Of a DNA stretch of 64,000 nt, positions 19,238 to 61,945 are shown in pieces (position 1 is the stretch's first letter; every line of letters begins with the position of its first letter). The stretch covers positions 256,001 through 320,000 of the forward strand of contig CAWHXP010000002.1 of NCBI GenBank assembly GCA_963833425.1. The letters are read 5' to 3'. Origin of the DNA: an uncultured Methanosarcinaceae archaeon. GTDB lineage: Archaea > Halobacteriota > Methanosarcinia > Methanosarcinales > Methanosarcinaceae. The notes beneath the pieces are model-generated. The model searched no databases, was not told the origin of the DNA, and was given only the letters and a program-made list of their open reading frames with translations. The translations under genes and the position numbers were made by a program.

Positions 19238-19261
19238 TATAATTTATTAACATATTTAGAG

Positions 19262-21728: not shown

Positions 21729-21735
21729 AAAAGAT

Positions 21736-22590: not shown

Positions 22591-22760
22591 CAAAAAAAGC
22601 ATATTTAACCTTTTTGTAACCTTCAATCCTGTAATAAATCTTTAATTTCTCAAGTTGAACGATGAATTGAAAAACTAGTGCGCCGAAAGTTCTGTAAAAT
22701 AAGAAATATAAAAAAAATATTTAAAAGATAAAGTATTATTCGATTCTAATGGTGAAATAA

Positions 22761-23537: not shown

Positions 23538-23547
23538 GGCATGAAAT

Positions 23548-24519: not shown

Positions 24520-24522
24520 CAT

Positions 24523-25476: not shown

Positions 25477-25503
25477 GGGCCCATAAAAAATCGAGGGTAG
25501 ATA

Positions 25504-28211: not shown

Positions 28212-28220
28212 CAGGCTAAC

Positions 28221-46003: not shown

Positions 46004-46969
46004 ATGATTAAAGTAGTGTCTCCCTCTAGACTGCATCTTACCTTAATAGACCTCAATGCAGAGCTCGGCAGAGTTGATGGGGGAGTAGGAATTACCCTGG
46101 AATACCCATCCATGGAACTTTGGGCAGATAAGGCTGATAATATCGAAATTTTAGGAGATTCTCTTCTATATGAAAAAATGAGAAAAGCAGCAGATTCTCT
46201 GTTACCTGCTGGGAAGGGGATTAAGCTCCATATTAACGACAGTATTCCTGATCATGTAGGTCTCGGTTCCGGGACTCAGGCTGCACTTTCAGCAGGAGCT
46301 GCTTTAAATAAAATTTACGGACTTGGTAAAAGTATTCGAGAACTTGCAGTTGCTGTGGGTAGAGGAGGGACTTCTGGGATAGGGGTTGCTGCTTTTGAAT
46401 ATGGTGGTATAATCCTGGATGGAGGCCATAAATTTAAGGATAAGCTTAATTTTTCTCCTTCTGCTGCCTCAAATGTACCTCCTGGCCCTGTACTCTTCAG
46501 GGAAAATTTTCCTGACTGGCCGATTGTCCTTGCAATCCCTAATACTAAAGGAGTCCATGGCGCCGAAGAAGTGGATATTTTCAAAAAATATTGTCCTATT
46601 CCCCTTGCTGAAGTCCAGGAGATTTCCCATGTAATCCTTATTCAGATGCTACCGGCAATAATGGAAGAAGACCTGGAAAGTTTTGGGAGGGCAATCAACC
46701 ACTTCCAAATTGCAGGTTTTAAGAAGCGTGAAGTCGAACTTCAGCAACGACCTGTTCTGGACATCATGGAGTATATGCGAGACAATGGAGCAAGTGGTTC
46801 AGGAATCAGTTCTTTTGGGCCAGTAGTTTACGGGGTAGTTGGAAGCATCGGCGAAGGCAAAAAACTTCAGAAAGAATCTCAGCGAATGCTTAATGAATCT
46901 CTTGGAGGGAAGGTATTGCTCACAAAGGCTAAGAACAGTGGTGCCGATATATTTGGGGGTCCTGATTGA
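46004..46969 (+). CDS. mptG: Beta-ribofuranosylaminobenzene 5'-phosphate (RFAP) synthase, methanopterin pathway
   Basis: PSRLHLTLIDL...RVDGGVG, PDHVGLGSGTQ (GHMP motif), RGGTSGIG and SSFGP. Confidence 0.9.
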   Translation: MIKVVSPSRLHLTLIDLNAELGRVDGGVGITLEYPSMELWADKADNIEILGDSLLYEKMRKAADSLLPAGKGIKLHINDSIPDHVGLGSGTQAALSAGAALNKIYGLGKSIRELAVAVGRGGTSGIGVAAFEYGGIILDGGHKFKDKLNFSPSAASNVPPGPVLFRENFPDWPIVLAIPNTKGVHGAEEVDIFKKYCPIPLAEVQEISHVILIQMLPAIMEEDLESFGRAINHFQIAGFKKREVELQQRPVLDIMEYMRDNGASGSGISSFGPVVYGVVGSIGEGKKLQKESQRMLNESLGGKVLLTKAKNSGADIFGGPD

Positions 46970-47973
46970 AGATCAATACCTGGTTTGGAGTTCTTGAGAT
47001 AAGCAGAACAGGAGAAATTATGGAATCCGAGCTTTTTTCAAAGGATATCCAGGAGCTTGCACTTCACTCCCTTTGCCTCAGAAAAAACATAGTGAATCTT
47101 CTGCCGGAGAAATTTGATATGATAGCTGCGGCTCTCGAGTGCAAGTTTGTAGTTTCCCCTTCAGAGTATTATTCCCTTTTACATGAAGTGACCCTAAAAA
47201 CTGCAAAACTTCAAGTATCAGGAGCTCTTAACCCTGATCAGCGAATTATCCACGCTGTGGAAGCCCTGGATGACATTAATGAAAATATAAACTCCCTATC
47301 TGAAAGACTTTCCGAATGGTATGGGATTTATTTTCCGGAAAGCGGTCTTGGAGGAGAAGCTCTTGCCATTTTTGTTGCATATTATGGTTCACCTAATAAT
47401 TTAGGGTCTGAAAATCCTCTCTATTCTAAAACAATAAATTCAATGGGTGCAAAACTAGAGGCTGCAGACGAAATGCTGCTGAAGGGCTTTGCAGAAAGCG
47501 TTTATAGCCTGTATGAAAGGAAGAGACAGATAGAAGCTTATATAGAAGACAGCATGGGATCGATTTCACCAAATCTAAAACTCATTGCAGGCTCAATTCT
47601 TGGGGCAAGATTAATAAGTATTGCAGGGAGCCTCGAGAAACTTGCTTCTTTTCCTTCAAGTACTATTCAAGTTATAGGGGCTAGCAAGGCTCTCTTCAAG
47701 CACCTTCGAGCTCGAGCTCCGTCTCCTAAGCATGGAATCATCTATAGTCATCATCTACTGAATACTGCTCCCTGGTGGGTAAGGGGAAAAATCGCAAGAG
47801 CGCTTGCAGGGAAGTTATCCCTTGCTTCTAGACTCGACTATTATTCAGGCGAAAAAGACCCCTCCCTTGTAGAAAAACTTGAAATAAAGGTTCGACTGAT
47901 CAAGGCTTCAAATCCCAAACCTCCTCAACGAATGCAAGTAAACGAGACAAAAACCAAAAAAAGGAAGAGGTAA
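46966..47973 (+). CDS. nop5: C/D box RNP protein Nop5
   Basis: ERLSEWYG.YFPE, GARLISIAGSLEKLA.FPSSTIQVIGA.KALF and SPKHGII motifs. Confidence 0.92.
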   Translation: MKINTWFGVLEISRTGEIMESELFSKDIQELALHSLCLRKNIVNLLPEKFDMIAAALECKFVVSPSEYYSLLHEVTLKTAKLQVSGALNPDQRIIHAVEALDDINENINSLSERLSEWYGIYFPESGLGGEALAIFVAYYGSPNNLGSENPLYSKTINSMGAKLEAADEMLLKGFAESVYSLYERKRQIEAYIEDSMGSISPNLKLIAGSILGARLISIAGSLEKLASFPSSTIQVIGASKALFKHLRARAPSPKHGIIYSHHLLNTAPWWVRGKIARALAGKLSLASRLDYYSGEKDPSLVEKLEIKVRLIKASNPKPPQRMQVNETKTKKRKR

Positions 47974-48657
47974 ATGCCTAAAGTCAATAAACTATACGAT
48001 GGAATTTATGAGATAGTGAAAGACAAAAAGCAGCTTGCTACACGGAACATTGACTGTGGTAAAGTAGTCTACGGAGAAAAATTAATTTCCTTAGAAGGTG
48101 TTGAATACCGAATATGGGACCCACACAGGAGCAAGCTGGGAGCCATGATCCTAAAGAAGTTCAACATACCTATTAAAGAAAATTTTAAAATTCTCTATCT
48201 TGGAGCAGCATCAGGCACAACTGTAAGTCACGTATCTGACATCGTTTCAGGTGGTGCAGTCTATGCCGTTGAGTTTGCCCCGCGGAGCATGAGAGATCTC
48301 ATAGGACTTGCATCTAGACGGAAAAATATCTACCCAATCCTAGCTGATGCGAGGAAAACAGATAGTTATGCCCATCTAGTTGAACCTGTGGATCTCATCT
48401 TTCAGGACGTTGCACAACCCAACCAGGTAGAAATAGCTACAAGAAATGCTGCTCGTTTTTTGAAAAGAGCCGGATATGTCCTGCTTTCCATCAAGTCACG
48501 AAGTATCGATACTGTGATGAACCCTAAAAAAATATTTGCAAATGAGCTTCGAAAACTAGAGCAAACACTTGAACCAAAATTCGAAATTCTTTGCGTAAAG
48601 GACCTGATGCCCTATCATGAAGACCACCTCGGAGTTATCGCAAAATTAAAAAATTAA
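47974..48657 (+). CDS. flpA: Fibrillarin-like rRNA/tRNA 2'-O-methyltransferase
   Basis: EYRIWDP.RSKL, LYLGAASGTTVSHVSD and DVAQPNQ motifs. Confidence 0.95.
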   Translation: MPKVNKLYDGIYEIVKDKKQLATRNIDCGKVVYGEKLISLEGVEYRIWDPHRSKLGAMILKKFNIPIKENFKILYLGAASGTTVSHVSDIVSGGAVYAVEFAPRSMRDLIGLASRRKNIYPILADARKTDSYAHLVEPVDLIFQDVAQPNQVEIATRNAARFLKRAGYVLLSIKSRSIDTVMNPKKIFANELRKLEQTLEPKFEILCVKDLMPYHEDHLGVIAKLKN

Positions 48658-48998: not shown

Positions 48999-50138
48999 TT
49001 ATTCTACAACTTTCAAGTATTTTTTCCGGAATTCGGGGTTCCTCATAAGACAGCACTTTGCATTGTACACAGGATCCTTACGGATTTTCTTCCAAATATC
49101 TTTTATTTTGTCTCTATATACATTCCCATATGGGATAGGAATACAAGCACAGGGTAGAATGTTCCCTTCTGGAGTGATGTGTAACCATTTCCTGCCTGCC
49201 ATACAACCAGTTGCCTTCATGATCTGCGGGATAGCAAAAACTCTTGGACCTTCTTTTTCCCTGACAATCGATACAAAATTGTCAAATTTTCTCATATTTT
49301 TTGGGTTCACGATTTCGGAAGTATTATTCATCCACCTGCCAGTAGGAACTATTTCGTACAAAGAAAGTTCGTGGACTCCAAGCTCTGATGCAAGTGTATA
49401 TATTTGTTCAAGCTCGTTTACGTTGTCATTGGAAAGAACCACATACATATTCACAAGCAAATCTGCCTTAATTCCATTTTTGACTGCCTCAACCGCACTG
49501 TTGAAAACCCCTTTTCTACCCCTGACATAATCATGCTGATCTTCAGACGCGCTGTCAAAACTGACAGTAAGGGAATAAAGGCCTGCTTCTTTCAAGCTTC
49601 TTGCTCTCTCTTCAGTCAGCCCGATTCCAGATGTAAACATTCCGTTGACGGCTTTTTCAGGATCTACATAATTAATCAGGTCTTCTAATCCAGGATACAT
49701 AAGAGGTTCGCCTCCGTCAAAGATTACGACGGTCGTGCCCATCTCGAGAACTTGATCAATTGTGGATTTCACTGCTTCAGGTGTGAGTTTCGCCCGGTTT
49801 TTTGTGTCAGGAAGAGCACAATGGATACAGTTGTTGGGACATTCCTCAGTTATTGAGATGGTTACCTGATCGGGAACCATTTTACCCAGAATGGACAAAA
49901 GCTGGCTTTTAACCAGGCGATCAAAACCTAGACTTGGTATGGAGGGCAGCCAGGTCGAACAAATAAGCCTATCGGAATCTATTTTTGCAGGTTTTTCTCC
50001 TTCAAAAATTGAGAGGTTTTTCCCAAGATTTTTTCGCATAATTATGGACGCTGGCCCGCTGGTTATTAGCCTCATGCGTCCGTCATCTATTTTGACAGAT
50101 ATTCTTAGGAAGGGGCTTTTATAAAAATCATACTCCAT
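48999..50138 (-). CDS. Radical SAM protein with SPASM/Twitch-like C-terminus
   Basis: CPNNCIHC, DGGEP and CMAGR...ITPEGNILPC...C. Confidence 0.88.
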   Translation of the reverse strand: MEYDFYKSPFLRISVKIDDGRMRLITSGPASIIMRKNLGKNLSIFEGEKPAKIDSDRLICSTWLPSIPSLGFDRLVKSQLLSILGKMVPDQVTISITEECPNNCIHCALPDTKNRAKLTPEAVKSTIDQVLEMGTTVVIFDGGEPLMYPGLEDLINYVDPEKAVNGMFTSGIGLTEERARSLKEAGLYSLTVSFDSASEDQHDYVRGRKGVFNSAVEAVKNGIKADLLVNMYVVLSNDNVNELEQIYTLASELGVHELSLYEIVPTGRWMNNTSEIVNPKNMRKFDNFVSIVREKEGPRVFAIPQIMKATGCMAGRKWLHITPEGNILPCACIPIPYGNVYRDKIKDIWKKIRKDPVYNAKCCLMRNPEFRKKYLKVVE

Positions 50139-50221
50139 ATTTTATCCTGCATCGGATGTTTGATGCTGATATTTGTGCAAGCCAGATTCTTTATTTAAAT
50201 TAGTCTTTTAAAATCCAAAGC

Positions 50222-51379
50222 TCATTTGTTCCTGAAAAGTGCTCTGCAATTCAATATTGAAAAGGGTTTTTTCTTCAACATGAATGCAAAGATCTGCATC
50301 GTCTGCTCAACTGAAGTTCCATGAATGAATGAGAGATTTTCATTCTCAAAAACAGTTACTATATCATCAATTTCTCTGTCTGTCATTTTTCGAAGAGTTT
50401 CAAGCCCTATGCGACCAACGTAATGTTCTATCTTAAATTCCTTTTCCCAAGTCTTCCGATACTCTGATAGATAATTTTTTGAGGTGTCCCCTTTTTTTAC
50501 AGCATCTGCAGCCACATCTCCGCATATTTGGCCTGCTCTCATTGCATAGCCTATCCCGGACTGACCGGCTGCCCCACCGACGACCATGATTCCATCGGTA
50601 ATAAACTCATTCGGAAGTGTTACTATAGGGTCTCCGCCGGAAAATTTTCTTACGACTTCAAAATCTAGTAATCCTTTTATTTTCTTGAATTTTTCAATCC
50701 AGGAGTTCAGGTAAGGCATTGCATCCTTTCCGCATCTACGTACATATGCCCCGATTGAAGCATTGTCTCCCCCCCTTGGGGAATAAGTAGTCTTCCATCC
50801 AGGGGCATGATTTCCTACGTAATACTCAAACATTTTTGATTTACCAATGCCTGAAGCCCGAATTTCAAGTTCAATTCCCCAAGCAATATCTTCCGGATGT
50901 TTCATCGTTTTCAGCCCAACAGAGGATGCCATTTTCGAATTAATACCGTCTGAGATAATTACGATTTTTGACTTAAAAATCCCGGTCGAGGTTTTGACAG
51001 AAAATGTTTTCCCGTCTCTGAGAATATTCTGTGCTTCTACCCCTTTTTGAACATCTACGCCGATATTTATTATTTTTTCCGTATAAAATCTGTCGAACTC
51101 TGTTTTATCAATAGCATATCCAGGGGCCTCAACCTCTACTATCCTTCCCGCAGGAGAAATAATTTGCATGCCCTTGAGGTAATGCATTACATAAGACGGA
51201 TCTACTGTCTCTCCACATTTATCAAACATATTCTTAAAAAAAGAATTTGCAGGATGTGGAGGGTTTCCAATATTTTCTTTTTTTTCCAGCAAAAGGACTG
51301 TAGAGCCTTTTTCACTCGCGTTCCTTGCAGCCATCAATCCTGCAGGAGATACTCCAATAACAATAATATCCGCATCCAT
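50222..51379 (-). CDS. Divergent geranylgeranyl-reductase-family flavoprotein
   Basis: IVIGVSPAG...LLEKK FAD-binding start; KTEFD, ISDG..S, VGGAAG and GIGYAM..G...G motifs. Confidence 0.8.
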   Translation of the reverse strand: MDADIIVIGVSPAGLMAARNASEKGSTVLLLEKKENIGNPPHPANSFFKNMFDKCGETVDPSYVMHYLKGMQIISPAGRIVEVEAPGYAIDKTEFDRFYTEKIINIGVDVQKGVEAQNILRDGKTFSVKTSTGIFKSKIVIISDGINSKMASSVGLKTMKHPEDIAWGIELEIRASGIGKSKMFEYYVGNHAPGWKTTYSPRGGDNASIGAYVRRCGKDAMPYLNSWIEKFKKIKGLLDFEVVRKFSGGDPIVTLPNEFITDGIMVVGGAAGQSGIGYAMRAGQICGDVAADAVKKGDTSKNYLSEYRKTWEKEFKIEHYVGRIGLETLRKMTDREIDDIVTVFENENLSFIHGTSVEQTMQIFAFMLKKKPFSILNCRALFRNK

Positions 51380-51395
51380 GTTCCCCTGCCTTTTT

Positions 51396-52337
51396 TCACC
51401 AGAGAATGGAGGTATAAGATCCTACATAAATGCACAGCACCACATCCAGGATCATTGATCCGAACATGATTGCTCTGTAATTTGAGCCTTTAAGGAAGAT
51501 TGCAGCTCCCCTCTCCGGGGTAGGGTGCCTGATAAAGTCAAAACACTGGACAAGCATCCAGAGCCCTGAGGCAGAGGCACCTACAAAATATACGGGCCCA
51601 AGATGGGCAGACCAGCCGATAAGCACTGATGCAATAACACCGACAACCCACCAGATAGTAACAAATCTGGCGGTAAAAGGAATTCCAAATGTCACTGGCA
51701 TTGTAGGGGCACCCTTAAGCCTGTCCCCTTCCAAGTCTCTGGAAACACCTCCAAGAGTAAAAGCCCAGTCTGTAACACACATCATAAGCCCAAAACAAAT
51801 AGCTGGCAAGGGAAGAGTTACCCCGTCGCCGCCTTTCAGTAGCCCTATAGGGTCAAAGGCAACCCAAACACCTATAGGCACAAGCCCATAGGAGATACCC
51901 ACGGGCAAAAAGCTGAGAAAGGTGTGCCTCTTTGCAAAGATCGAATAAATGGTAATAGTTCCGACCGCAATAAAAAGGATAATGAGAGATTCAGGGTTTA
52001 GATAAGTGGCTGATGCGCCTGCTATTACTAACAACAAGAAGGCATAAATAAAAGCCGAATTTTTTGAGATTCTGGAAGAGGGTAGAGGGCGGCCTGGCAG
52101 ATTGATCGTATCTATATCAATATCGCAGCAATCATTAAAGACGTATGAACTGGTAATCGCCGCAAAGCCTCCTATAACGGCAATCAAGAAGGGGATAAGT
52201 TTAGGAAGTCCTCCTGTTGCTATATAAGAGGCCAGAATTGCACTCGAAGATGGAAGGGTAAGATCCATGTAGTAGAGTTCGGGCCTTAAAAGTTTGAGGT
52301 AAGGACTGAGTTCTCCAATTCTTGCTGTAAGAGAAAT
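51396..52337 (-). CDS. UbiA-family prenyltransferase
   Basis: NDCCDIDIDTIN...RPLPS and RDLEGD acidic motifs; multiple TM helices. The frame extends above the track start through YLKLLRP to ATT at 52337 behind GAGGTGA. Confidence 0.88.
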   Translation of the reverse strand: MSLTARIGELSPYLKLLRPELYYMDLTLPSSSAILASYIATGGLPKLIPFLIAVIGGFAAITSSYVFNDCCDIDIDTINLPGRPLPSSRISKNSAFIYAFLLLVIAGASATYLNPESLIILFIAVGTITIYSIFAKRHTFLSFLPVGISYGLVPIGVWVAFDPIGLLKGGDGVTLPLPAICFGLMMCVTDWAFTLGGVSRDLEGDRLKGAPTMPVTFGIPFTARFVTIWWVVGVIASVLIGWSAHLGPVYFVGASASGLWMLVQCFDFIRHPTPERGAAIFLKGSNYRAIMFGSMILDVVLCIYVGSYTSILW

Positions 52338-52608
52338 TATTTCACCTCTATTTTTCGAATAGATACAGAAGTCTTTTTATCTGAATTATTTATACTTCAG
52401 GTTTTTTTTAATTTATAATATTTTTTGCAATAAGTCCTATGAAGGTTCGCATCTCAAAAAGTTTTTCTTTTTATTTTTTTTCAGAGACAGTGTTTTATTT
52501 ATGAGATTTAGTGAAGGAGTTATAAGTAAATCATAAAGGATATATTAGGAAGTCTGAAGAACTGTTAGATGCTCAATGTCGTTACAAAGCTCCTATAGAG
52601 CTCATTTT

Positions 52609-54081
52609 TTATGTTTCTTCCCCAGCCTCCCTGTAGATCAGTTTTGCATTTTTGCTTATTTCTTCAAATAGCGGGTGTTTGAACTCCTTTTCGCAGACAA
52701 AGGTAAACTCTGCTTTCGGGTTTAAGACCATTAGTTTAAGAGTATTTAGAAGAGCTGTGCTGAGGGCTTCATAATCCGGAAATTTAGGAACCTCGGCATT
52801 GAAAGGATATACTTCATCCATTTCAACAGGAAATGCCCCGAACGGTGCTTTGAAATTAAGGATTTGATCGTAACTGTTCTCTCCCTTCACAGGGTCTGTG
52901 CGAATAAGTACCGAGCCTTCAAAGCTAAACCTTCCCAGTCGTTTCCCAAAACGTAGGATTTCTGGCCGAGAGGAAGATTCTGGTCCACAGTAAAAATATG
53001 TTCCTTTTGTGGCTGGATCCAACTGTTCAAGCCAGTGTGAGTGTGTATAAAGTTTTTTCAGTCCTTCAAGAAGCCTTGGATGAGAACGGCATCTTTTCTC
53101 TACAAGTTCGAGCAATTTTCCGTCCTTTATGCACTGTTTAATAAGCCGGATTTCAGCAAAAGTTGCGTAGAGGTTGTGCTTTCCCAAAAGTTCTTCCCTG
53201 TTATCTGCTTTTTTAAGTTCTTGTGCGGTATATTTTGAACAAACCTGACAGGAACAGGGTAAATAATTTAATTTATCCAAATGATAAGTCCCGTTTACAG
53301 TAATATAGCGCCCGTCCTTAGCATAAAGGGCATAAGCTGCCGAATCAAAAAGATCGCAGCCAAGTGCCACTGCAATAGCGAACATCATAGGGTGCCCTGC
53401 TCCGAAAAGATGTATCGGTGAGACTGGAGAAAGCCTTTTTTTGGATGCCGCAACTAAGTCAACGAGATCTGCATAACGGTATGCTTCCAAGAGCGGGACA
53501 ATTGCTCCCAGAGAATATACATCAAATTTGAGATTTTTTAGTTGGGTAGCAGCCTTTTCTCTAAGATCAAGGTAAGTTGAGCCCTGTACTGGCCCCGCAA
53601 GTAGTTGTTCACCCTTAATAAACTTACGGGCAGCTTCCAGACGTTCATATGTGATCGCAAGCTCCTCTTCAGCTCTTTTATAGTGAACATCTGGGGGCGT
53701 TGGAATGTCGAGAGGGACAACAATATCGCTTCCGATCTTTTGCTGAAACCCAAGAATCTCTTCATTTGTTACTTCGACAGAACCATATACTGAAAGCTGA
53801 AAAGAACCCGAGTCAGTCATAACGGGTCCGTCAAAATCTATGAGCTTGTGCAGCCCTTTCTCAAGAGCAATTTTTCGCAGCTCTTCCTTACGGTAGATAA
53901 TATAAGAATTGGTGATCAGGATTTCTGCTCCGAAGGTTCCCATTTCTCTTGGAGAGATAAGCTGGATATTCGGATTGATTACAGGCATTACTGTAGGTGT
54001 CTCAACAATTCCATGGGGAGTCCTTAACTTTCCTATCCTTCCGCCTGCGTCCTTGTCAAAAATTTTGAATATTACTGACAT
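52609..54081 (-). CDS. tgtA: Archaeosine tRNA-guanine(15) transglycosylase
   Basis: GRIG.L.TPHG.VETP..MPV, MTDSGSFQL, HLFGAGHP, DLFDSA and the Zn site CSCQVC...HN; no PUA domain. Confidence 0.93.
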   Translation of the reverse strand: MSVIFKIFDKDAGGRIGKLRTPHGIVETPTVMPVINPNIQLISPREMGTFGAEILITNSYIIYRKEELRKIALEKGLHKLIDFDGPVMTDSGSFQLSVYGSVEVTNEEILGFQQKIGSDIVVPLDIPTPPDVHYKRAEEELAITYERLEAARKFIKGEQLLAGPVQGSTYLDLREKAATQLKNLKFDVYSLGAIVPLLEAYRYADLVDLVAASKKRLSPVSPIHLFGAGHPMMFAIAVALGCDLFDSAAYALYAKDGRYITVNGTYHLDKLNYLPCSCQVCSKYTAQELKKADNREELLGKHNLYATFAEIRLIKQCIKDGKLLELVEKRCRSHPRLLEGLKKLYTHSHWLEQLDPATKGTYFYCGPESSSRPEILRFGKRLGRFSFEGSVLIRTDPVKGENSYDQILNFKAPFGAFPVEMDEVYPFNAEVPKFPDYEALSTALLNTLKLMVLNPKAEFTFVCEKEFKHPLFEEISKNAKLIYREAGEET

Positions 54082-55428
54082 ACCGGCATTATAGACGCTC
54101 ACTAGATATATTTATTTTTGGGATTGGAAATAAACCAGGATAAAGTGGAAGGAGCCTAAAGATACACTTTCTCAGTTTTAAAAAACAGGGAGAAAATGGT
54201 TTTTAAGTCAGAATTCCGGTATCTAACTACTTTTTCTAGATTTTTTTACCTGAATTTTTTTCCTACCTCAGTCTTTTATTGCTCGAGACATTGAAGTAAT
54301 TTTCCAGAAACCATAGGGAGAAGAAATCACTGCTCTTAGATATTCTCATTACAATGATCATATAGGTTACCTATCGAGTATCTCCTATACTATAATTACT
54401 ATGTCATCTAAAACAAGGATATATCTTTATTAGCTGCTATAATTGCAACATCAATATTTACTTCGAAGATTATTCCGAAGAGATAACTAAATTTGAGAAT
54501 TACTTCCAAGGCTTGTTGCAGGTGTAACCATGTCAAGCAAAATAATAGAAATGGATAGAAGTTCCAATGTAAGACTCAAGATTTTGAACTTAATGCGATT
54601 TGAATGGCGCTAGAAACATCGAGCATAGAACACGAGCGATCGGTTTATCTTAGAATCTCATGGTTGTCTGTCAATCATCCATACGGATAGTATGATTTGG
54701 TTAATCAGATATATCTCGGCCTGTTATTTCACCGGCAATATTGAATTTCGTCAAACATATAGGTTGAGTGGAAATTACTTTCCGGGATCTTCAGGTTTCT
54801 TATTCTATCATCCTTCTACTTCCCACTACCTTTTCTTTTTGGCAATAATGGTAGCTTATCCAGATAAATTCTATTCCACTACCCTTTAAATCCTAAGTCA
54901 TTCTTATAGCAATTTTTCCGCTTGGGCTAATTGCTATAATATGGAATATTTTAAACTGTGGTGATTTTCTTGATGTTGCCTCAACAATTGCTTTCGTACT
55001 TGACTCTCATACACTGTTATCGATGGAAAATATATTTTTTCCAAGTATTATTCTCTTCTTCATTCGTATTTTGTATCCTGATGCGGCTCTTTTTTACGGT
55101 TCCTTTTCTAATCTATGCTCATCCTTATAACAATTTCAAAAACGAATTCTTCTCCGGATGGTTCTCATTGAGGAGATATATTATATTGGATTATAAATAT
55201 ATTTAATACGGATATATTCCTCCTTCAGAAGAAAAAATATATATTGAAACGAGTCTATTTTAATAAAAAAGAGATTTATGAAATTCGGAAATCCGGATTC
55301 ATTGCATAATTTTTTTCTTGTTGACTTCAATGCAGAAAGCAAAGCAGACTCAGGCTACTGAAAAAATTATTTATCTATGATTAGGTAAAATATAATCATA
55401 GGGGTCGCATTTTATAGAGGTGTTTTTT

Positions 55429-56569: not shown

Positions 56570-56751
56570 CAATCTAATTGAATGATGTAATCGCTAAAAA
56601 CGGTTATATGAACTGAATTTTTTCTAGTTATTCACTGCCTAAGCTTCAGGAAATAACTATCAATTTTTCAAGGACAAAAATATAGCTTCCTGTTCTAATT
56701 TCTCTTTGGGAAAAACTTTTAAAAAATTGAACAAGAAATGGATCATTAATA

Positions 56752-56840
56752 GATAATTTTGATAAAACTCTAATTTTCAAAAGTCGTTGATATACATTTT
56801 ATAAAAATATGACAAAATTTACAAGTTTATCGAAATACTC
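56752..56840 (+). mobile_element. ~88-bp MITE with IS5-type ends (copy 3)
   Basis: GATAATTTTGATAAAAC...ATGACAAAATTT...AAGTTTATCGAAATACTC. Confidence 0.75.
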
Positions 56841-57959
56841 AAGATATGCTAATATTTCTCCAAAGTATTTACGTACGTTCTCTCTGCAACTTTTTTTTCT
56901 TACCATAGTTTTTGGTTTTCTACTACCAGGTGCTTCCGTATTCTCTAATATTTCTCCTCTACTTTTACCTTACTATTTACTAATACCCAACTATCATCCT
57001 AACCTAAACTTTCTACCTGGCATTCCGAAGTGAAAAGTATGAACATGTCAAATTTAAATTTTTCCCATATATGCTTTTAGATCCACGTTTGATACCCATA
57101 AAAATTTTCCCGGAATATGCTCAATTTTTTTAGCAGTAAATATTCTCCTGGATAAGTTTGAAATTACGCATTTGAAATAAAAACCAAATACTTCAAACAT
57201 TACGATCTAATTAAAAAAGAATTTTAAATGTATATTGCAGATTTTACAGAAAATTATGCATGTTATATCTAAAATTAATCTACTTATATTTGAAAAAAAA
57301 ATCACAATATTAAGTTCATTAAGATTTCCACAAATAATGCAAACATAATTAATATAAAATTATATTTTGATTTTAAAGCATTTTACGAGGAAATAATTTT
57401 TATTCAGAAATTATTTTTTGTATAATTAATTTAAAATAACGGTGGAGACAATTTTTGATTTTAGATTAAAGTAAACGAATAAAGAGTTGAGTGAGGAATA
57501 TCAGTAGGATGTGTGATTACGCAGAGTGGATGTATAGATCTATTGGGTAATCGTAGAAAATTTTGATAAACTTCCGATTTTCAACAAATTGCTTCCATTC
57601 ACTTTTTCGCTACGGCCTCTTAGCTTAAATCATGTCCATCAGCAGATTAGAGATCCCCAATATTTCAAACTGTACCGTTTATGGGACACAATTGACTTAT
57701 TGTTGATCATAGTTTACAATTGATTACATTTGATCAAAAGCCAACAAAGTCAGAATTTTTAGGTAAAAGAAAGAAATTATTGTATAGTTGATCCTCGAGA
57801 AATAAACCTTTTATGGACTAATCTTAAAAGAATTAACCTTGAAAGAGCTAATCATTTTATGGCTGATCTTGAATAATCTGACTTTGACGTAGCTACCTTG
57901 ATGTAGCTAACCTTTAGGAACTAACGCAGACAACAATGTTTAGAAAGATTAGGACTATA

Positions 57960-58047
57960 GGGGATTCAATAAACCCCTTATTTTCACGATTTATTTATGT
58001 ATCAATTATAAGCATATGAAAAAGTTTAGGAGTTTATCAAAATCACT
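57960..58047 (+). mobile_element. ~88-bp MITE with IS5-type ends (copy 4)
   Basis: GGGGATTCAATAAACC...ATTTTCAC...GAGTTTATCAAAATCAC. Confidence 0.6.
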
Positions 58048-58071
58048 TTATTTTTAAAACAGTATTTAAAA

Positions 58072-59066
58072 GGTTCTGTATAAATGCTCTAAATTGAACT
58101 TTTACACTACATTATTATAATTATTCCGTTAGAGTATTCTCCTTATTTTTCTGCTAAAAACGAAGGAACATTCTATATTGAAGTTTAATAAGTACATTAA
58201 ATTTGTTTATATTAACCTTGAAACTGTTCAGTCTTCGAGACTGAAGCTTTATTCCTGCAAATATTCAAAACACGTTTATGCCCAGCATTAGCTTCTTTTA
58301 CTGGTTTTATTTAAAGAGTATATTCGTACAGACTATCTCTAGATTTTGTAGAACTCATTGACCTTATGAGCGATATAAATGAAAAATTTGCTCTTGATAA
58401 AATTCCACATTTCACTACTCTTCAAAAGTATGTAACTAGGATTCCTTCTTATCTGTTTAACCATCTTCTGTCAAGGATTATAAAGCTGTTTTACTCATAT
58501 GGAGAAAATATCTATGATACAGCGATTGATGCAAGGGATTTACGAGTCCCTATGCAAGTTATTATTCCAGAAGAACGGGAATCTTCGAAGAAGCTTCCTG
58601 AGAACTTCAATATCATTAGACATAAGTAAAAAGGTAATATTGGGATGGAAAATTAGTCAAAAAACAGACAATGAAATCAAACATGCAAATGCTCTGATAA
58701 GACAATCAAATAAGATGAGAAAGTCTGATTGTTATGTAATGGATAGAGACGATTCAGAAAAAAATCCATTCTATAATTAGAAAAGAAATCAAAGCAGATT
58801 CAATTATACCTGTAAGAGAGAGAAAAAGGAAGAAAATAGGAGTAAATATAGAAACCAGCTGCCTCTGTCTTTGACAAAATTAAATCTAATCAAATAAATA
58901 TTGTGGAGACAATGTTTTCTGTAGTTTAATGAAAATTAGGAGAAACACTTAAGGCAAGGAAATTCCGTTATCAAGTAAAAGAGATTAAAATTAAATTAAT
59001 AGCATACAACATAAACAAAAAAATTATAAATATAATTTGCATCAAATTATGGATTTCTAAAGAGCC
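58072..59066 (+). mobile_element. Decayed DDE insertion sequence (IS5/IS4-like), distinct from the IS at 1232
   Basis: Imperfect TIR GGTTCTGTATAAATGC / GGATTTCTAAAGAGCC. Transposase pieces YSCKYSKHVY, IPHFTTLQK, AIDA, YVMD and NIVETMFSV are broken by stops. Confidence 0.8.
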
Positions 59067-59861
59067 ATTTAAAACAATATTTTTAGGATAGCATGCATTG
59101 ACGCATAGTTTCTGTTGAAAAAGAGTTCAAAACGGTGAAAAATGATATTTCGTCGCTTCCGATAGAAGCGTTTCATTAAAAGATAAAAATTCTAATTCAT
59201 TAAGTTAATGACTAAAATAATGCAGAGGTAGGTTTAATATTAACCAATTCTATCGGTACGCTATAAAATTGCTCTTTTTACTGTCTTGGATGGTACTTAT
59301 TTTGCCCATCAACTCGGAAACTTTTGAATTTAATTATCCAAGAGTTTTAGATCACTCCTGATATCATTCCTCTTTCACCGATATATAAATACCAAAATCG
59401 CTCCTCTACATTATAATCTCGCCTATTACGCAGATATAAAAAGCTCTAAATTACTTGGCAGGAAGTGGAAATGGGAAATTGAAATACGTTCCTCTTTTTG
59501 AGATTGCGGATTCAGAAGATGTTGATATTAGATAAGATGGGACATAAATCTGCAGAAAGATCAAGGTGTTTCTCAGGAAGTTGTAGGCAAAACAACCGGA
59601 CATGTTGTCAATGGTCGATTTGTATACATAGGTACTAACTTGAAGTTGGAAATTATCAGTTGATAGATGGGTACCGTAAAGTGATTTACATAGCTATTGC
59701 AGTTATCATCTTCAGCTCTGTAAGCTGGCTACTTAACAGGAAAAAAGATATACAGATATGGAATTCGTTTGCCTATTTGTCAAATATTATTCGTTGAAGA
59801 AACCGACAATTAGGACCTGTAGATTTTTGTCACTCATTTAGCTGTCATTCATCTCAATCCT

Positions 59862-60146
59862 TTAGTTATCATCGAAATCGGCTTTAATTTTGAGTGCATC
59901 TTCACGAGAAAGAGATGTGCATGTTATCGTTGCTTTGAACTTGTTTAATAGCTCTAGTACCTTATCTTCGGCCCATTTCGTGATTAAGATAAATAAAGCA
60001 AAGATTCCTATCAAAATACTCCAAAATGCGCCGCCAATTATGCCTATACCCGCAAGATGTACTGCCCGCTTCACCTGTGTTTTGCCATCGTGCTTGCAAA
60101 TTATCCCAAAAAAGAGTAATATGTTCGTTTTATCAGATTTTATCAA
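59862..60146 (-). pseudogene. DUF1269-like membrane protein remnant with internal deletion
   Basis: GGAFW..LIG is joined directly to LFILI.KW.EDKVLE.L.KF..TI..TSLS.ED. Confidence 0.5.
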
Positions 60147-60804
60147 TGACTCATCTCCAATACCTAAATCTATTTATTTGCAAGTGTCCAAAAGGCTTTC
60201 TTTTTACTTTCCCTATTTTCAGAGTAAAGACTAAAATCAAGCACAATATTTATTTTAGTTAAATTATTATTTCAACAGTTAAATTGCGTAGATATTCGAA
60301 TTGATAAGATTTCAGCCTAAAACTACCAAAATCTATTCATTTTAAGCGACAATGTACAGTTACCTCCATGGTTATTTTAAATTAATTATACAAAAAATAG
60401 TTTCTGAATAAAAGTTATTTCCCCGTAAAATGTTTTGATTCTAAACAATAATTTAATATTAATTATGTTATTACTTTATAGATAGTCACATATTTAATAT
60501 TGAGCATTTTCGGAAAAAGCACTTAAAATTGTGCTTATCAAATTCTCAAATTAAAAAATCTGATAAAAGTTATTACCAAAATTTTATCTTTTAAATAAAA
60601 AATTTTTAAATTCATTGCCATTCCCTTAGGTCAGTGAATAAATCTGCGAAATGATCTTTTAGAAACTCCTTAGTGGCTAAAAGAAGCAGAGAATTTAAAC
60701 CGAGAGATTGCGAATCCATTTTGAATCAAATACTTCCACTCTTAAATTGATTATAAAAGAAAAGGAAGCACTATATCTCATGATACTTTAACGAGGTAAT
60801 GGCG

Positions 60805-60920
60805 GATTACCAGAAACTGGAATAGGGATTATAATTTGTAAAAAAATTGCGTAATATATGGGGGTATATGGATGGAATCTAAACTGGGTAAAGGTTCAAT
60901 TTTTTTATTTCGCTTTATCA
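60805..60920 (+). pseudogene. Histidine kinase HATPase_c C-terminal remnant
   Basis: TGIGIIICKKI / GIWMESKLGKGS.F pieces. Confidence 0.55.
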
Positions 60921-61404
60921 ATCAACCTTATCGAATTTCAAAAACCAATTTTTTACATATAAGAAAAATTTATAAAGTGTAGCTTTTTCTGTAAAATTTC
61001 CTCTAGCCACTTTAATCTTCTTTTTAATCCTTACTCCATATTATTCACACTTGTTTTCTGTGCACAAGATAAGTCCGAATTACATCCTATATTGAAAAAC
61101 AAAATTATATATCGGGCACAAAAATTTGACTTATAATTTACAGCAAATTCACAACACTGCCATTGAATTTTAAAATACTTCTGTATTGAGAAAATATATG
61201 AAACTTTTATGTAAATATGTGGGAAGTGGAAACAAAAAAATTACCAATCCACTTTTCATTTTTCATCTGTCACATATGAATTGGGCCGTTTAGTTTAGAG
61301 CACGATCCTGGTAAATAAACTGTGTTCAATAATTATATATATTGATTTTTAATTCATTATATCAACTTTACTTCTGAACAAGGTACTCCTACATGGAATG
61401 TATC

Positions 61405-61520
61405 AAAAGATGCAATGATGTCGTTTTTCCTTGCTGATGTGTCTTAGTAGATGATGAATTTCGCATTTATTATGGAAGTGCAGATATGTCAGTATCAATG
61501 CCCAGTGCAAAATTGCGAAT
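61405..61520 (+). pseudogene. GH130-like glycosidase C-terminal remnant
   Basis: NDVVFPC*CVLVDDEFRIYYGSAD. Confidence 0.5.
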
Positions 61521-61629
61521 ACCTGAGTAGATACAGGGGTGCTCTGAGAAACAATGTCCTGAAGAATACTGTAGATAGTTTGAAGAAAAAAAAATTTTCT
61601 AGATACAAAAAAAGTGATTTTAAATAAAA

Positions 61630-61717
61630 GAGAATTTCGATAAATCTCTAATTTTCAAAGTAACTTATAAACTATTTATAATCACATGACAAAATTAAGG
61701 AATTTATCTAAATTCTC
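61630..61717 (+). mobile_element. ~88-bp MITE with IS5-type ends (copy 5)
   Basis: GAGAATTTCGATAAATC...ATGACAAAATT...AATTTATCTAAATTCTC. The first 14 nt are identical to the IS5 left end at 1232. Confidence 0.8.
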
Positions 61718-61779
61718 TATAGGCCTAGTTTCTCTAGAGTTGTTGTCTACGTTAGCTTTAAAAGGTTACTCTAATGTTC

Positions 61780-61945
61780 TAAAAACTGCTGCTCTGGTGA
61801 TTTAAAAACTAGCCGAAACTCCTCTTTTAGTTGTATGAAAAATTCTTTGTCCAATTTTTACCTTATAAAGCACTCTCACTTTAGACAGCTGGTCAATTTT
61901 GATAAATTAAGCGCTACTTCAAGGTTAGCCTTAAAAGAGTTTATA
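61780..61945 (-). pseudogene. Pentapeptide-repeat protein C-terminal remnant
   Basis: KANLEVALNLS / IDQLSKVRVLYKVK pieces. Confidence 0.45.

What the first reader, a model, noticed from the sequence alone, without database searches (positions are those of the whole stretch)
48999..52337. UbiA prenyltransferase, divergent prenyl reductase and radical SAM operon: candidate methanophenazine or novel prenyl-ether pathway
Seen: three co-oriented intact genes with gaps of 16 and 83 nt. Established: methanophenazine, the membrane electron carrier of Methanosarcinales, is 2-hydroxyphenazine ether-linked to a C25 isoprenoid whose proximal unit is saturated. UbiA enzymes can form prenyl ethers and GGR-type flavoproteins reduce prenyl double bonds; to my knowledge the pathway is not fully assigned. 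Inference: UbiA attaches the chain, the reductase saturates one bond, and the radical SAM enzyme performs O2-independent head-group chemistry. An unusual membrane lipid modification is the main alternative.
Basis: partly seen in the sequence, partly recalled or inferred. Interest (0 to 1): 0.85.

Follow-up and report, generated by a model that had tools for sequence, protein, structure and literature searches.

The report
Conserved prenyl-ether operon of Methanosarcinales
Methanosarcina and its relatives keep together a three-gene operon (membrane prenyltransferase, unusual flavoprotein, radical SAM enzyme) that is a plausible but unproven candidate for building methanophenazine, their membrane electron carrier.

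Summary
The three minus-strand genes are real: UbiA prenyltransferase (51396-52337), GGR-fold flavoprotein "RED" (50222-51379) and radical SAM enzyme (48999-50138), with gaps of 16 and 83 nt. One caveat: a 1-nt deletion has removed the TTG start that six relatives use for UbiA, leaving an in-frame ATT.

All three genes are adjacent in 73 of 80 related species loci, all Methanosarcinaceae, ANME-2 or ANME-3. The flanking genes are housekeeping only.

- **UbiA:** it keeps every catalytic motif and is closest to the ether-forming DGGGP synthase, but scores far below that family's cut-offs.
- **RED:** it folds like geranylgeranyl reductase (TM 0.86), yet every hallmark position is replaced, so reductase activity is not assured.
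- **Radical SAM enzyme:** it has one auxiliary cluster and an extra N-terminal domain, and most resembles peptide maturases (SkfB, SuiB, CteB) and PqqE.

The methanophenazine reading fits the taxonomy, the chemistry and an unassigned pathway. It remains circumstantial: only 80 of 214 loci were visible, Methanothrix was not assessed, some relatives are labelled Methanocellales, and no GFPP synthase is linked. My confidence is about 0.35, and a lineage-specific ether lipid is the main rival. I rate it a new variant of known enzyme kinds, with interest 0.62.

The parts
51396..52337 (-). UbiA-superfamily intramembrane prenyltransferase, 313 codons counted from ATT 52337 (290 from ATG 52268), with about 8-9 hydrophobic segments
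   Evidence: (PF01040, 145.8 bits)
52334..52337 (-). Start-codon lesion. Relatives read TTG here; the window lacks the G, which leaves an in-frame ATT
   Evidence: (6 of 6 relatives have TTG)
52342..52348 (-). GAGGTGA Shine-Dalgarno-like element upstream of the UbiA start; GGTGA is invariant in 7 of 7 aligned sequences
52386..52394 (-). TATAAATAA, a TATA-box-like element about 50 nt upstream of the start and largely conserved among relatives. Its role as the promoter is inferred, not shown
   Evidence: The sigma-70 scan does not apply to archaea
52278..52289 (-). Family-invariant L-R-P-E (residues 17-20), which lies upstream of ATG 52268
52110..52136 (-). UbiA motif 1, N68-D69-x2-D72-x3-D76 (NDCCDIDID); N68, D69, D72 and D76 are invariant
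   Evidence: The motif definition is from PMC9385802
51930..51947 (-). UbiA motif 2, Y131-x4-K136 (YSIFAK); Y131 and K136 invariant
51723..51737 (-). UbiA second Asp-rich motif, D201-x3-D205 (DLEGD); D201 and D205 invariant
50222..51379 (-). RED: a GGR-fold flavoprotein of a distinct 'WK' subfamily, 385 aa
51338..51355 (-). RED dinucleotide-binding loop GVSPAG, i.e. GxSxxG where canonical GGRs have GxGxxG
   Evidence: (Ser in 76 of 78 subfamily members; Gly in 109 of 111 canonical-like)
51251..51253 (-). RED Pro43, in the column that holds the conserved Cys of GGRs
   Evidence: (Pro in 74 of 78 subfamily members against Cys in 107 of 111 canonical-like)
50777..50797 (-). RED W195-K196-T-T-Y-S-P201, which replaces the YxWxFP motif of GGRs
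   Evidence: PMC9385802 section 15
50555..50578 (-). RED GGAAGQSG, which replaces GDAAxQxxPxxGGGI: the Asp is lost and the loop is 6 residues shorter
   Evidence: (Gly in 72 of 78 subfamily members against Asp in 104 of 111 canonical-like)
48999..50138 (-). Radical SAM enzyme with a partial SPASM / twitch-like C-terminal domain, 379 aa
49869..50138 (-). Radical SAM N-terminal extra domain (residues 1-90): three strands plus helices in the model, with no Pfam match
49818..49841 (-). CPNNCIHC, the CX3CX2C radical SAM cluster motif (C100, C104, C107 invariant)
49050..49205 (-). Auxiliary-cluster cysteines C312-x17-C330-x-C332 and C363. The GX4C element is present; the CX2CX5CX3C block of a full SPASM domain is absent

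Best explanation
This is a self-contained three-gene operon inherited vertically in Methanosarcinales-type archaea. It builds or matures a lineage-specific prenyl-ether compound, and the best candidate product is methanophenazine.

Shown here:
- The UbiA protein is a catalytically competent intramembrane prenyltransferase of the ether-forming (DGGGPS-like) branch, but it is not the housekeeping DGGGP synthase.
- The middle protein has the geranylgeranyl-reductase fold with a rebuilt active site.
- The third protein is a radical SAM enzyme with one auxiliary Fe-S site and an extra N-terminal domain.
- The three genes stay adjacent across genera.

Inferred:
- UbiA transfers geranylfarnesyl diphosphate onto the hydroxyl of 2-hydroxyphenazine or a precursor.
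- Only after that transfer does the flavoprotein saturate the C2=C3 bond of the proximal isoprene unit. An allylic diphosphate is needed for the transfer, so reduction cannot come first.

Speculative: the radical SAM enzyme acts on the head group or its precursor.
For: - **Domains and coordinates:**
- **UbiA motifs:** N68/D69/D72/D76, Y131...K136 and D201-x3-D205 are invariant in 22 family members. Motif definitions come from PMC9385802 passages.
- **UbiA relatives:** the nearest solved structure is the ether-forming MjDGGGPS 6m31 (E 1.6e-12). The best NCBIfam rows are DGGGPS-like but far below cut-off. PMC9385802 reports that UbiA enzymes cluster by acceptor substrate, so a separate subfamily implies a different acceptor.
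- **RED:** the model (pLDDT 94.8) matches TaGGR 3oz2 at TM 0.86, E 2e-30. The subfamily is small: 45 of 1.84 billion cluster representatives at E<=1e-30. It is separated from canonical GGRs by a 100/100-supported branch.
- **Synteny:** all three genes are adjacent in 73 of 80 loci, and 4 of the 7 misses are contig ends. Median gaps are 14 nt and 60 nt, and the second gap is 6.5 nt outside the Methanosarcina-like loci.
- **Taxonomy of named carriers:**. These are lineages for which methanophenazine-dependent complexes are described or predicted (passages of PMC9012536 and PMC3017947).
- **Pathway status:** the papers read treat it as unassigned apart from GFPP synthase MM_0789. Searches found no paper assigning these genes.
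- **Chemistry:** saturating the proximal bond makes a prenyl diphosphate useless as a donor, and GGRs can work on benzyl-ether head groups (PMC9385802 section 15).
- **Precedent:** a membrane-bound prenyltransferase acting on 1,6-dihydroxyphenazine is known (PMC4044012; title and abstract start only).
Against: - No experiment bears on it.
- The profile is incomplete. Only the best 80 of 214 matching species loci were returned. No Methanothrix name appeared, and only about a quarter of hits carry names.
- P0391, P0393 and P0430, labelled 'Methanocellales archaeon', fall inside the WK clade. P0430 lies just outside the window's orthologue group. Methanocellales are, from recall, regarded as cytochrome-free.
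- RED scores below the GGR subfamily cut-off (104.6 against 158.8).
- RED has Pro for the conserved Cys, K/T/S for the Y/W/F triad, Gly for the GD-motif Asp and GxSxxG for GxGxxG. It may not be a reductase, and may not bind FAD in the usual way.
- The radical SAM enzyme has no required role in the simple scheme, and it resembles peptide maturases.
- No polyprenyl synthase, phenazine-type, UbiD/UbiX or methyltransferase gene occurs within 6 kb in the 80 loci. This rests, which scanned 54 of the 68 ORF families of 130 aa or more that were still unscanned.
- Two ANME-2-like loci (L070, L076) have UbiA and RED but no radical SAM gene within 6 kb.
- From recall only: Ogawa et al. 2014 (FEBS J) characterised another M. 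acetivorans GGR paralogue. I remember it as being discussed for methanophenazine, but the paper is not held, so I could not check.
- In this window the UbiA start codon is damaged.
Confidence: 0.35

Rival explanations
1. The operon is a paralogous lipid module that makes or modifies a lineage-specific isoprenoid ether lipid. It would be a specialised copy of the DGGGPS + GGR + radical-SAM (Tes/Grs-type) logic of archaeal membrane-lipid synthesis.
For: - The UbiA's closest relatives by sequence are DGGGP synthases, and N68 and Y131, which position the glycerol backbone in MjDGGGPS, are kept.
- RED's closest fold is the lipid reductase TaGGR.
- Radical SAM enzymes (Tes, GrsA/B, Cds) do modify archaeal lipids (PMC9385802 passages), and GDGT-MAS 7tol is among the hits (E 8.3e-5; Foldseek E 1.7e-11).
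Against: - From recall, no Methanosarcinales-specific lipid is known to lack an enzyme of this kind. Hydroxyarchaeol formation has been ascribed to a phytoene-desaturase homologue (Mori 2015, cited in PMC10821996).
- The radical SAM enzyme is closer to SkfB, BlsE and PqqE than to GDGT-MAS.
- RED lacks the residues that hold the isoprenoid methyl group in GGR.
Confidence: 0.25
2. The operon modifies a tetrapyrrole or another cofactor. A ChlG/ChlP-like pair (prenyl attachment plus tail reduction) would act with a NirJ/AhbD-like radical SAM enzyme on a heme-type cofactor of cytochrome-containing methanogens.
For: - The radical SAM enzyme's best NCBIfam rows are NirJ2 (125.8 bits) and the heme b synthase AhbD (121.7 bits).
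- The UbiA also hits heme o synthase (81.1 bits) and chlorophyll synthases.
- The taxonomic range equals that of cytochrome-containing methanogens.
- Single loci sit next to CobN/Mg-chelatase (L043) or cobamide genes (L071).
Against: - All those scores are far below cut-offs (500 for NirJ2 and AhbD, 210.3 for heme o synthase).
- DGGGPS-like rows score higher for the UbiA.
- The tetrapyrrole neighbours occur in 1 locus each out of 80.
- From recall, no prenylated tetrapyrrole is known from these organisms.
Confidence: 0.08
3. The product is peptide-derived. The radical SAM enzyme, through an N-terminal peptide-recognition-like domain, cross-links a ribosomal peptide encoded elsewhere, as in PQQ or mycofactocin. 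The flavoprotein and UbiA then tailor and prenylate it.
For: - The full-length structural matches are the RiPP maturases SkfB (E 7.3e-18, 377 aligned columns), SuiB and CteB.
- PqqE (115.5 bits) and the mycofactocin maturase (80.3 bits) are among the NCBIfam rows.
- The modelled N-terminal domain is three strands followed by helices. From recall, this is the topology of RiPP recognition elements.
Against: - No Pfam family matches residues 1-95, PqqD included, even at E<=10.
- No small ORF is conserved next to the trio across genera.
- TM-scores to the maturases are only about 0.6, with rmsd 8-13 A.
Confidence: 0.07
4. These are the housekeeping DGGGP synthase and GGR of the organism, with an unrelated radical SAM neighbour.
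For: Some sources name the middle protein 'digeranylgeranylglycerophospholipid reductase' or 'geranylgeranyl/isoprenyl reductase'.
Against: - All equivalog cut-offs are missed by a wide margin.
- The hallmark GGR residues are replaced.
- The RED subfamily is confined to a few lineages, whereas canonical GGRs form the bulk of the 3341 hits.
- From recall, M. acetivorans uses MA0961 and MA1484 for these housekeeping steps (Isobe 2014, cited; the locus tags were not seen in any call).
Confidence: 0.03

Closest known systems
Digeranylgeranylglyceryl phosphate synthase (UbiA superfamily; MjDGGGPS, PDB 6m31)
   Same: Both have the UbiA domain, a multi-pass membrane topology, the N-x3-D-x3-D, Y-x4-K and D-x3-D motifs, and ether-forming (O-prenylating) chemistry. 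It is the best solved relative.
   Different: The match is only E 1.6e-12 / 50.7 bits to 6m31. The three DGGGPS equivalog models score 91, 73 and 35 bits against cut-offs of 296, 353 and 278. The family was seen only in Methanosarcinales-type lineages, always beside RED, so the acceptor is presumably not GGGP.
Geranylgeranyl reductase (TaGGR 3oz2, SaGGR 3atq/4op*)
   Same: The overall two-domain PHBH-type fold including the C-terminal helices is shared: TM 0.86 to 3oz2 and 0.76-0.79 to the SaGGR entries. There is a sequence match across residues 4-353.
   Different: Identity is 22%. RED has Pro for the conserved Cys, WKxTxSP for YxWxFP, GGAAGQSG for GDAAxQxxPxxGGGI, and GxSxxG for GxGxxG. It scores below the TIGR02032 cut-off.
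Chlorophyll synthase ChlG plus geranylgeranyl reductase ChlP (tail attachment followed by tail reduction)
   Same: It is the same two-enzyme logic, a UbiA-family transferase followed by a GGR-family reductase. Chlorophyll synthase is the second solved hit of the UbiA (E 2.5e-5).
   Different: That pair forms an ester on a tetrapyrrole and has no radical SAM partner of this type. The scores are weak.
Membrane-bound phenazine prenyltransferases of Streptomyces (Mpz10, PMC4044012; CnqPT1 from recall)
   Same: They are a precedent for an integral-membrane prenyltransferase that takes a hydroxyphenazine as acceptor (title and abstract start seen).
   Different: They are bacterial, transfer C5/C10 units and belong to secondary metabolism.
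SkfB / SuiB / CteB peptide maturases and PqqE (radical SAM with SPASM or twitch domains)
   Same: All share a CX3CX2C core plus a C-terminal auxiliary-cluster domain. They are the best sequence and fold matches. An extra N-terminal domain sits in the same position as their peptide-binding domains.
   Different: Identity is 12-18%. The N-terminal domain belongs to no recognisable sequence family. No precursor peptide gene lies nearby. The operon partners here are lipid-type enzymes.

Membership tests
UbiA prenyltransferase superfamily | PF01040 domain above the gathering score | tested here: met
   145.8 bits against 34.2
UbiA prenyltransferase superfamily | Asp-rich motifs and the Y...K motif needed for Mg2+/diphosphate binding | tested here: met
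   N68, D69, D72, D76, Y131, K136, D201 and D205 are invariant in 22 sequences. Motifs are as described in PMC9385802
DGGGP synthase (housekeeping archaeal lipid enzyme) | Score above the NCBIfam equivalog cut-offs | tested here: not met
   NF009521: 91.1 against 296. NF009522: 72.8 against 353. NF009512: 35.1 against 278
DGGGP synthase (housekeeping archaeal lipid enzyme) | Activity on GGGP + GGPP, and being the only such enzyme in the genome | not testable with these tools
   Only a 64-kb window and 6-kb flanks were available. No second UbiA or GGR gene lies in the window
Geranylgeranyl reductase family (TIGR02032) | Score above the subfamily cut-off | tested here: not met
   104.6 against 158.8 bits
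Geranylgeranyl reductase family | Two-domain GGR fold | tested here: met
   Foldseek best hit 3oz2, TM 0.86/0.84, E 2.3e-30
Geranylgeranyl reductase family | Conserved Cys next to the flavin (its catalytic role is recalled, not seen in a call) | tested here: not met
   The column is Cys in 107 of 111 canonical-like sequences and Pro in 74 of 78 subfamily members, including the window
Geranylgeranyl reductase family | Y/W/F residues that position the double bond (SaGGR Y215, W217, F219) | tested here: not met
   K196, T198 and S200 occupy those positions. K in 76 of 78, T/S in 70 of 78 and S in 65 of 78, against Y/F in 110 of 111, W in 109 of 111 and F/I/V in 107 of 111. The roles of these residues are from PMC9385802 section 15
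Geranylgeranyl reductase family | Canonical FAD signatures GxGxxG and GD(AA) | tested here: not met
   GxSxxG (Ser in 76 of 78) and GGAAGQ (Gly in 72 of 78). Whether a flavin is still bound was not testable
Radical SAM superfamily | CX3CX2C motif and PF04055 above cut-off | tested here: met
   C100, C104 and C107 are invariant. 83 bits against 29.5
SPASM-domain radical SAM enzymes (two auxiliary clusters) | The seven-Cys pattern CX9-15GX4C ... CX2CX5CX3C ... C (pattern recalled) | tested here: not met
   PF13186 matches only its first 45 of 67 positions (30.8 bits). Only C312, C330, C332 and C363 are conserved, which is enough for one cluster
AhbD / NirJ / PqqE / MftC equivalogs | Score above the equivalog cut-offs | tested here: not met
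   121.7 against 500 (AhbD); 125.8 against 500 (NirJ2); 115.5 against 381 (PqqE); 80.3 against 265 (MftC)
RiPP maturases with a recognition element | A PqqD-like recognition domain and a precursor peptide gene | tested here: inconclusive
   The fold search puts SkfB, SuiB and CteB first. Against that, residues 1-95 match 0 Pfam families at E<=10, and no conserved small ORF lies near the trio
Methanophenazine biosynthesis (a pathway, not yet a defined family) | Present in all producers and absent from non-producers | tested here: inconclusive
   The carriers are Methanosarcinaceae, ANME-2, ANME-3 and Methermicoccus, but three relatives are labelled Methanocellales. Methanothrix was not assessed, and 134 of 214 loci were not returned
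Methanophenazine biosynthesis (a pathway, not yet a defined family) | Genetic or physical link to GFPP synthase or head-group genes | tested here: not met
   None lies within 6 kb in the 80 loci
Methanophenazine biosynthesis (a pathway, not yet a defined family) | Enzyme activity with geranylfarnesyl-PP and 2-hydroxyphenazine; loss of the carrier in mutants | not testable with these tools
   This needs bench work

The most novel reading that the evidence does not exclude
The operon is the missing core of methanophenazine biosynthesis, or of a still unknown prenylated redox cofactor of Methanosarcinales and ANME archaea, and its head group is made in an unprecedented way. A RiPP-maturase-like radical SAM enzyme, using its fused recognition-like domain, would forge the redox-active ring system from a peptide or another non-chorismate precursor. 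A GGR-fold flavoprotein with a re-invented active site would tailor it, and the UbiA enzyme would anchor it to a C25 chain.
Probability: 0.08. Interest if true: 0.95.

Novelty: new variant of a known kind. Interest (0 to 1): 0.62.

Why it matters
Methanophenazine is the membrane electron carrier of the methanogens and methane-oxidising archaea that have an electron transport chain. In the papers I could read, the only assigned biosynthetic gene is the GFPP synthase. Genome studies therefore infer use of the carrier indirectly.

A conserved, lineage-restricted operon with the right chemistry gives a concrete target that can be knocked out in a genetically tractable organism. If confirmed, it would also give marker genes for predicting methanophenazine use in ANME and novel methanogen genomes.

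Independently of the product, the RED subfamily shows a geranylgeranyl-reductase fold in which every hallmark active-site position has been exchanged and then conserved. This points to new flavoenzyme chemistry or a new substrate class.

Tried and rejected
- **Ogawa et al. 2014** (FEBS J, the 'novel GGR' of M. acetivorans) is not held. The six papers that cite it gave no locus tag or clear regiospecificity. A search for 'MA1492' found nothing.
Later literature evidence is search listings only or re-reading of papers already held.
- **The protein-atlas search** on RED and UbiA gave only generic FAD-oxidoreductase and UbiA clusters with phylum-level taxa.
- **Window-wide scans:** Rfam found 0 matches and ARAGORN found 0 tRNAs. 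The sigma-70 promoter scan does not apply to archaea.
- **Pfam on the radical SAM N-terminal 95 residues** found 0 families at E<=10.
- **Search for a conserved precursor-peptide ORF** near the trio: none is shared between genera.
- **Search of flanks for pathway partners:** only housekeeping genes turned up.
- **Mirror-tree correlation** among the three proteins is r 0.95-0.97 over 72 loci, but the neighbouring tgtA gives r 0.93 against RED. This shows vertical descent only, not functional coupling.
- **Complex prediction** for UbiA + FAD + RED was held up by a full queue for 12 hand-ins, then ran once. The verdict was 'no answer', with score 0.00 against a mark of 0.32. It counts neither for nor against binding.
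- **Rejected idea, hydroxyarchaeol formation:** that trait also occurs in Methanococcales (from recall) and has been ascribed to another gene.
- **Rejected idea, RED is the housekeeping GGR:** ruled out.
- **Not checked:** Presence in Methanothrix, Methanoperedens and cultured Methanocella therefore stayed unchecked. So did co-occurrence with GFPP synthase, and the genomic context of the distant RED relatives.

Full report
**Observation.** The window carries three co-oriented minus-strand ORFs at 48999-50138 (379 aa), 50222-51379 (385 aa) and 51396-52268/52337. Pfam and NCBIfam identify a radical SAM/SPASM protein, a flavoprotein whose best family is the geranylgeranyl-reductase subfamily, and a UbiA prenyltransferase. 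None of them reaches the curated cut-off of any NCBIfam model, equivalog or subfamily. Upstream lies tgtA (52609-54102, archaeosine tRNA transglycosylase, 625 bits). Downstream and convergent lie fibrillarin and Nop5. No other UbiA, GGR or isoprenoid gene is in the 64-kb window.

**The UbiA start.** In six of six aligned relatives the gene begins with TTG, directly after a TAA stop and a GGTGA Shine-Dalgarno. The window lacks the G of that TTG. Compared with its three closest relatives (L001-L003; 91.4% DNA identity to L001), this is one of only three window-specific single-base indels in 3.8 kb (besides two longer gaps at the alignment ends), and the only one that touches a gene. The 23 residues between ATT and the first ATG contain the invariant L-R-P-E of the family, so a protein started at ATG 52268 would lack a conserved part. 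There are three possibilities: translation starts at ATT, the gene is impaired in this organism, or the base is an assembly error. A second gene in the window (the leuA/cimA-like gene at 7775-9319) shows a similar lesion at its start. That makes an assembly error worth checking.

**UbiA.** The protein has about 8-9 hydrophobic segments. It keeps every catalytic signature described for the DGGGPS/UbiA superfamily: N68, D69-x2-D72-x3-D76, Y131-x4-K136 and D201-x3-D205. All are invariant in 22 family members from different genera (motifs from PMC9385802, passages). Its nearest solved relative is the ether-forming MjDGGGPS (E 1.6e-12), followed by chlorophyll synthase. Its best NCBIfam rows are DGGGPS-like prenyltransferases, but at 91-108 bits against cut-offs of 269-296. 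It is therefore an active O-prenyltransferase-type enzyme that is not the housekeeping DGGGP synthase. According to the review, UbiA enzymes cluster by acceptor, so a separate subfamily implies a different acceptor.

**The flavoprotein (RED).** A search of 1.84 billion cluster representatives found 3341 relatives, but only 45 at E<=1e-30. A profile of the distant members gave 63 proteins at 390-521 bits, and the next best scored 223. In IQ-TREE trees of 57 sequences, this 'WK' group plus a small sister group forms one clade. The branch separating it from canonical GGRs has length 0.58 and 100/100 support in the careful tree. The AlphaFold model (pLDDT 94.8) superposes on T. acidophilum GGR at TM 0.86, so the fold is GGR.

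The active site is not GGR-like. The comparison used 202 sequences: the window protein, the representatives and the hits, restricted to 300-480 aa. Searches give these counts:

| Position | Canonical-like sequences (n=111) | WK subfamily (n=78) |
|---|---|---|
| Conserved Cys column | Cys in 107 | Pro in 74 |
| Aromatic triad, first position | Y/F in 110 | K in 76 |
| Aromatic triad, second position | W in 109 | T/S in 70 |
| Aromatic triad, third position | F/I/V in 107 | S in 65 |
| Asp of the GD motif | Asp in 104 | Gly in 72 |
| Central Gly of GxGxxG | Gly in 109 | Ser in 76 |

The aromatic positions are those that hold the double bond over the flavin in SaGGR (Y215, W217, F219; PMC9385802 section 15). 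The loop after the GD motif is also six residues shorter. The replacements are themselves conserved, so the protein is under selection for some function. 'Prenyl reductase' is an inference from fold and context, not from catalytic residues.

**The radical SAM enzyme.** C100, C104 and C107 (CX3CX2C) and the GGEP SAM-binding motif are invariant in 46 homologues. In the C-terminal part only C312, C330, C332 and C363 are conserved. That is enough for one auxiliary cluster. The Pfam SPASM match covers only the first 45 of 67 profile positions. By sequence, the best solved relatives are SkfB, BlsE and PqqE. The model (pLDDT 88.8) has an extra N-terminal domain of three strands followed by helices. 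Its best full-length structural matches are the peptide maturases SkfB, SuiB and CteB (E 7e-18 to 3e-16), with TM about 0.6 and large rmsd. From recall, those enzymes carry N-terminal peptide-recognition domains. However, residues 1-95 match no Pfam family even at E<=10. I also found no small ORF conserved across genera near the trio. The domain's role is open.

**Conservation and distribution.** One scan of species-representative genomes used the RED alignment with the pattern D[VI][ILV][VI][IV]GASP[AS]. It found 214 loci encoding a relative, and the best 80 were returned. By record title they are Methanosarcina, Methanolobus, Methanococcoides, Methanomethylovorans, Methanohalophilus, Methanohalobium and unnamed Methanosarcinaceae/-ales MAGs. 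Two are labelled as ANME-3 relatives (L045, L051) and one as an ANME-2 cluster archaeon (L076).
- tblastn finds the UbiA upstream in 77 of 80, the radical SAM gene downstream in 76 of 80, and all three in 73 of 80.
- Four of the seven misses are contig ends (L046, L056, L075, L079).
- L066 has a Bro-N ORF where the UbiA should be.
- L070 and L076 have UbiA and RED but no radical SAM gene within 6 kb.
- Median gaps are 14 nt (UbiA to RED) and 60 nt (RED to radical SAM). The second gap is 6.5 nt in the non-Methanosarcina loci, and some genes overlap.
- Flanking genes are housekeeping: tgtA, DUF7121, a HAD phosphatase, Mtd, PAC2 and DUF473. No polyprenyl synthase, phenazine-type, UbiD/X or quinone-type gene appears (in one search, 54 of the 68 ORF families of 130 aa or more that were still unscanned).
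- Pairwise identities of the three proteins correlate at r 0.95-0.97, but tgtA correlates with RED at 0.93 as well. This shows vertical inheritance and nothing more.
- Beyond the 80 loci, named RED relatives are Methermicoccus shengliensis, a Methermicoccaceae MAG, Methanimicrococcus and three MAG proteins labelled 'Methanocellales archaeon'.
- In the tree, the window's orthologue group holds Methanosarcinaceae, an ANME-2-like sequence and a large unnamed group (P0398 and about 25 similar clusters). One 'Methanocellales' pair lies just outside it. The other lies in a basal WK clade.
- Whether those distant relatives sit beside a UbiA and a radical SAM gene could not be checked.

**Literature.** The papers I could read treat methanophenazine biosynthesis as unassigned apart from the geranylfarnesyl diphosphate synthase MM_0789. 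These were PMC6315138, PMC3017947 and PMC9478090, where I read passages. A bioRxiv preprint (10.1101/2022.07.20.500911) speculates that an unnamed UbiA gene is involved. Searches combining methanophenazine with biosynthesis, prenyltransferase, geranylgeranyl reductase, radical SAM and UbiA found no paper that assigns this trio. The same was true of a search combining Methanosarcina with the three enzyme names. The library lacks most subscription journals. Ogawa et al. 2014, on a second GGR of M. acetivorans, could not be read. From recall, it concerns a different paralogue that may already have been linked to methanophenazine. If so, the role proposed for RED is weakened, though not the role proposed for the UbiA.

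**Mechanism.** The best-supported reading is a dedicated pathway for a lineage-specific prenyl ether, with methanophenazine as the best candidate product.
- From recall, its structure is 2-hydroxyphenazine ether-linked to a C25 chain whose proximal unit is saturated.
- That structure needs exactly an O-prenylating membrane transferase and then a reductase that acts after the transfer. A saturated diphosphate cannot serve as donor.
- GGRs tolerate aromatic ether head groups.
- A membrane-bound prenyltransferase for dihydroxyphenazine exists in Streptomyces (listing only).

I put this reading at about 0.35. The profile is incomplete, RED's catalytic machinery is unlike any proven prenyl reductase, the radical SAM enzyme has no necessary role, and nothing ties the operon to GFPP synthase. 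The rivals are:
- a paralogous lipid module (0.25);
- a tetrapyrrole or other cofactor modification (0.08);
- a peptide-derived prenylated product (0.07);
- housekeeping lipid enzymes (0.03).

The remainder is something not yet imagined.

**Comparison and novelty.** Each protein belongs to a known superfamily (UbiA, PHBH/GGR fold, radical SAM). None is a member of a characterised family: all the family cut-offs and most hallmark features were tested and not met (see the membership table). The combination, its tight conservation and the re-invented RED active site make it a new variant of known kinds. Its value is that it turns a long-standing open question into three knock-outs and one enzyme assay in a tractable organism.

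**Limits.** The complex prediction for UbiA and RED returned no answer and is not evidence either way. As a result, four things stayed unchecked: Methanothrix, Methanoperedens and cultured Methanocella, co-occurrence with GFPP synthase, the model-strain locus tags, and the supplements of the transcriptome papers.

Noticed in passing
window 7775-9325 (-): A leuA/cimA-like gene (HMGL-like, HCS_D2 and LeuA_dimer domains). Its reading frame is open for 514 codons and the HMGL domain begins 18 residues after an in-frame TAA. An ATG sits immediately before that stop, and another ATG lies in a different frame. There is no ATG, GTG or TTG for the first 88 codons. This is a second start-region lesion in the window, either a frameshift or an assembly indel.
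   Followed up: partly
window 18552-30001 (+), with a transposase at 21801-22505: A sugar-nucleotide and glycosylation cluster: dTDP-rhamnose genes, nucleotidyltransferases, epimerases, a GT2, a TPP enzyme, GtrA and a DegT aminotransferase. It is interrupted by an IS240-type DDE transposase. GC rises to 0.47-0.50 at 24-30 kb, against 0.29-0.43 elsewhere in the window, which suggests acquired DNA.
   Followed up: no
window 56600-63070: About 6.5 kb of AT-rich sequence (GC 0.29-0.38) has no stop-to-stop frame longer than 122 codons, no tRNA and no Rfam match. Other ORF-poor stretches lie at 31.7-33.4 kb and 38.8-41.4 kb.
   Followed up: no
window 46966-48657, compared with L004-L080: A synteny break sits right after the radical SAM gene. 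In the window and its three closest relatives (L001-L003) the downstream genes are fibrillarin and Nop5. In the other loci they are DUF7121 (58 loci), a HAD phosphatase (44 loci) and Mtd (50 loci).
   Followed up: partly
L070 3415-5562 and L076 1047-3213: Two ANME-2-like loci keep UbiA and RED, preceded by a small S-layer-domain ORF, but have no radical SAM gene within 6 kb. In L070 a nucleotidyltransferase/HepT toxin-antitoxin pair follows RED.
   Followed up: partly
L066 362-1210: A Bro-N domain ORF, a domain typical of mobile elements and viruses, occupies the place of the UbiA gene upstream of RED. This is the only locus where the UbiA is missing without a contig end.
   Followed up: no
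proteins P0259, P0267, P0268, P0271, P0277, P0296, P0308-P0310 and others: A sister subfamily of RED, 13 cluster representatives, also lacks the GGR Cys and the GD Asp. It carries a conserved G-G-R-x-Q where RED has G-W-K-x-T. Its organisms and function are unknown.
   Followed up: partly
proteins P0398-P0423: A large, well-sampled but unnamed group of RED orthologues, about 26 clusters at 90% identity and about 57% identical to Methanosarcinaceae sequences. It branches just outside Methanosarcinaceae plus ANME-2. It could be Methanothrix, Methanoperedens or ANME-2c, which would matter for the phylogenetic profile.
   Followed up: partly
window 30004-31653 (-), 33408-34508 (+), 35474-35911 (-): ORFs of 549, 366 and 145 aa beside the glycosylation cluster have no Pfam match at E<=1e-5.
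   Followed up: no
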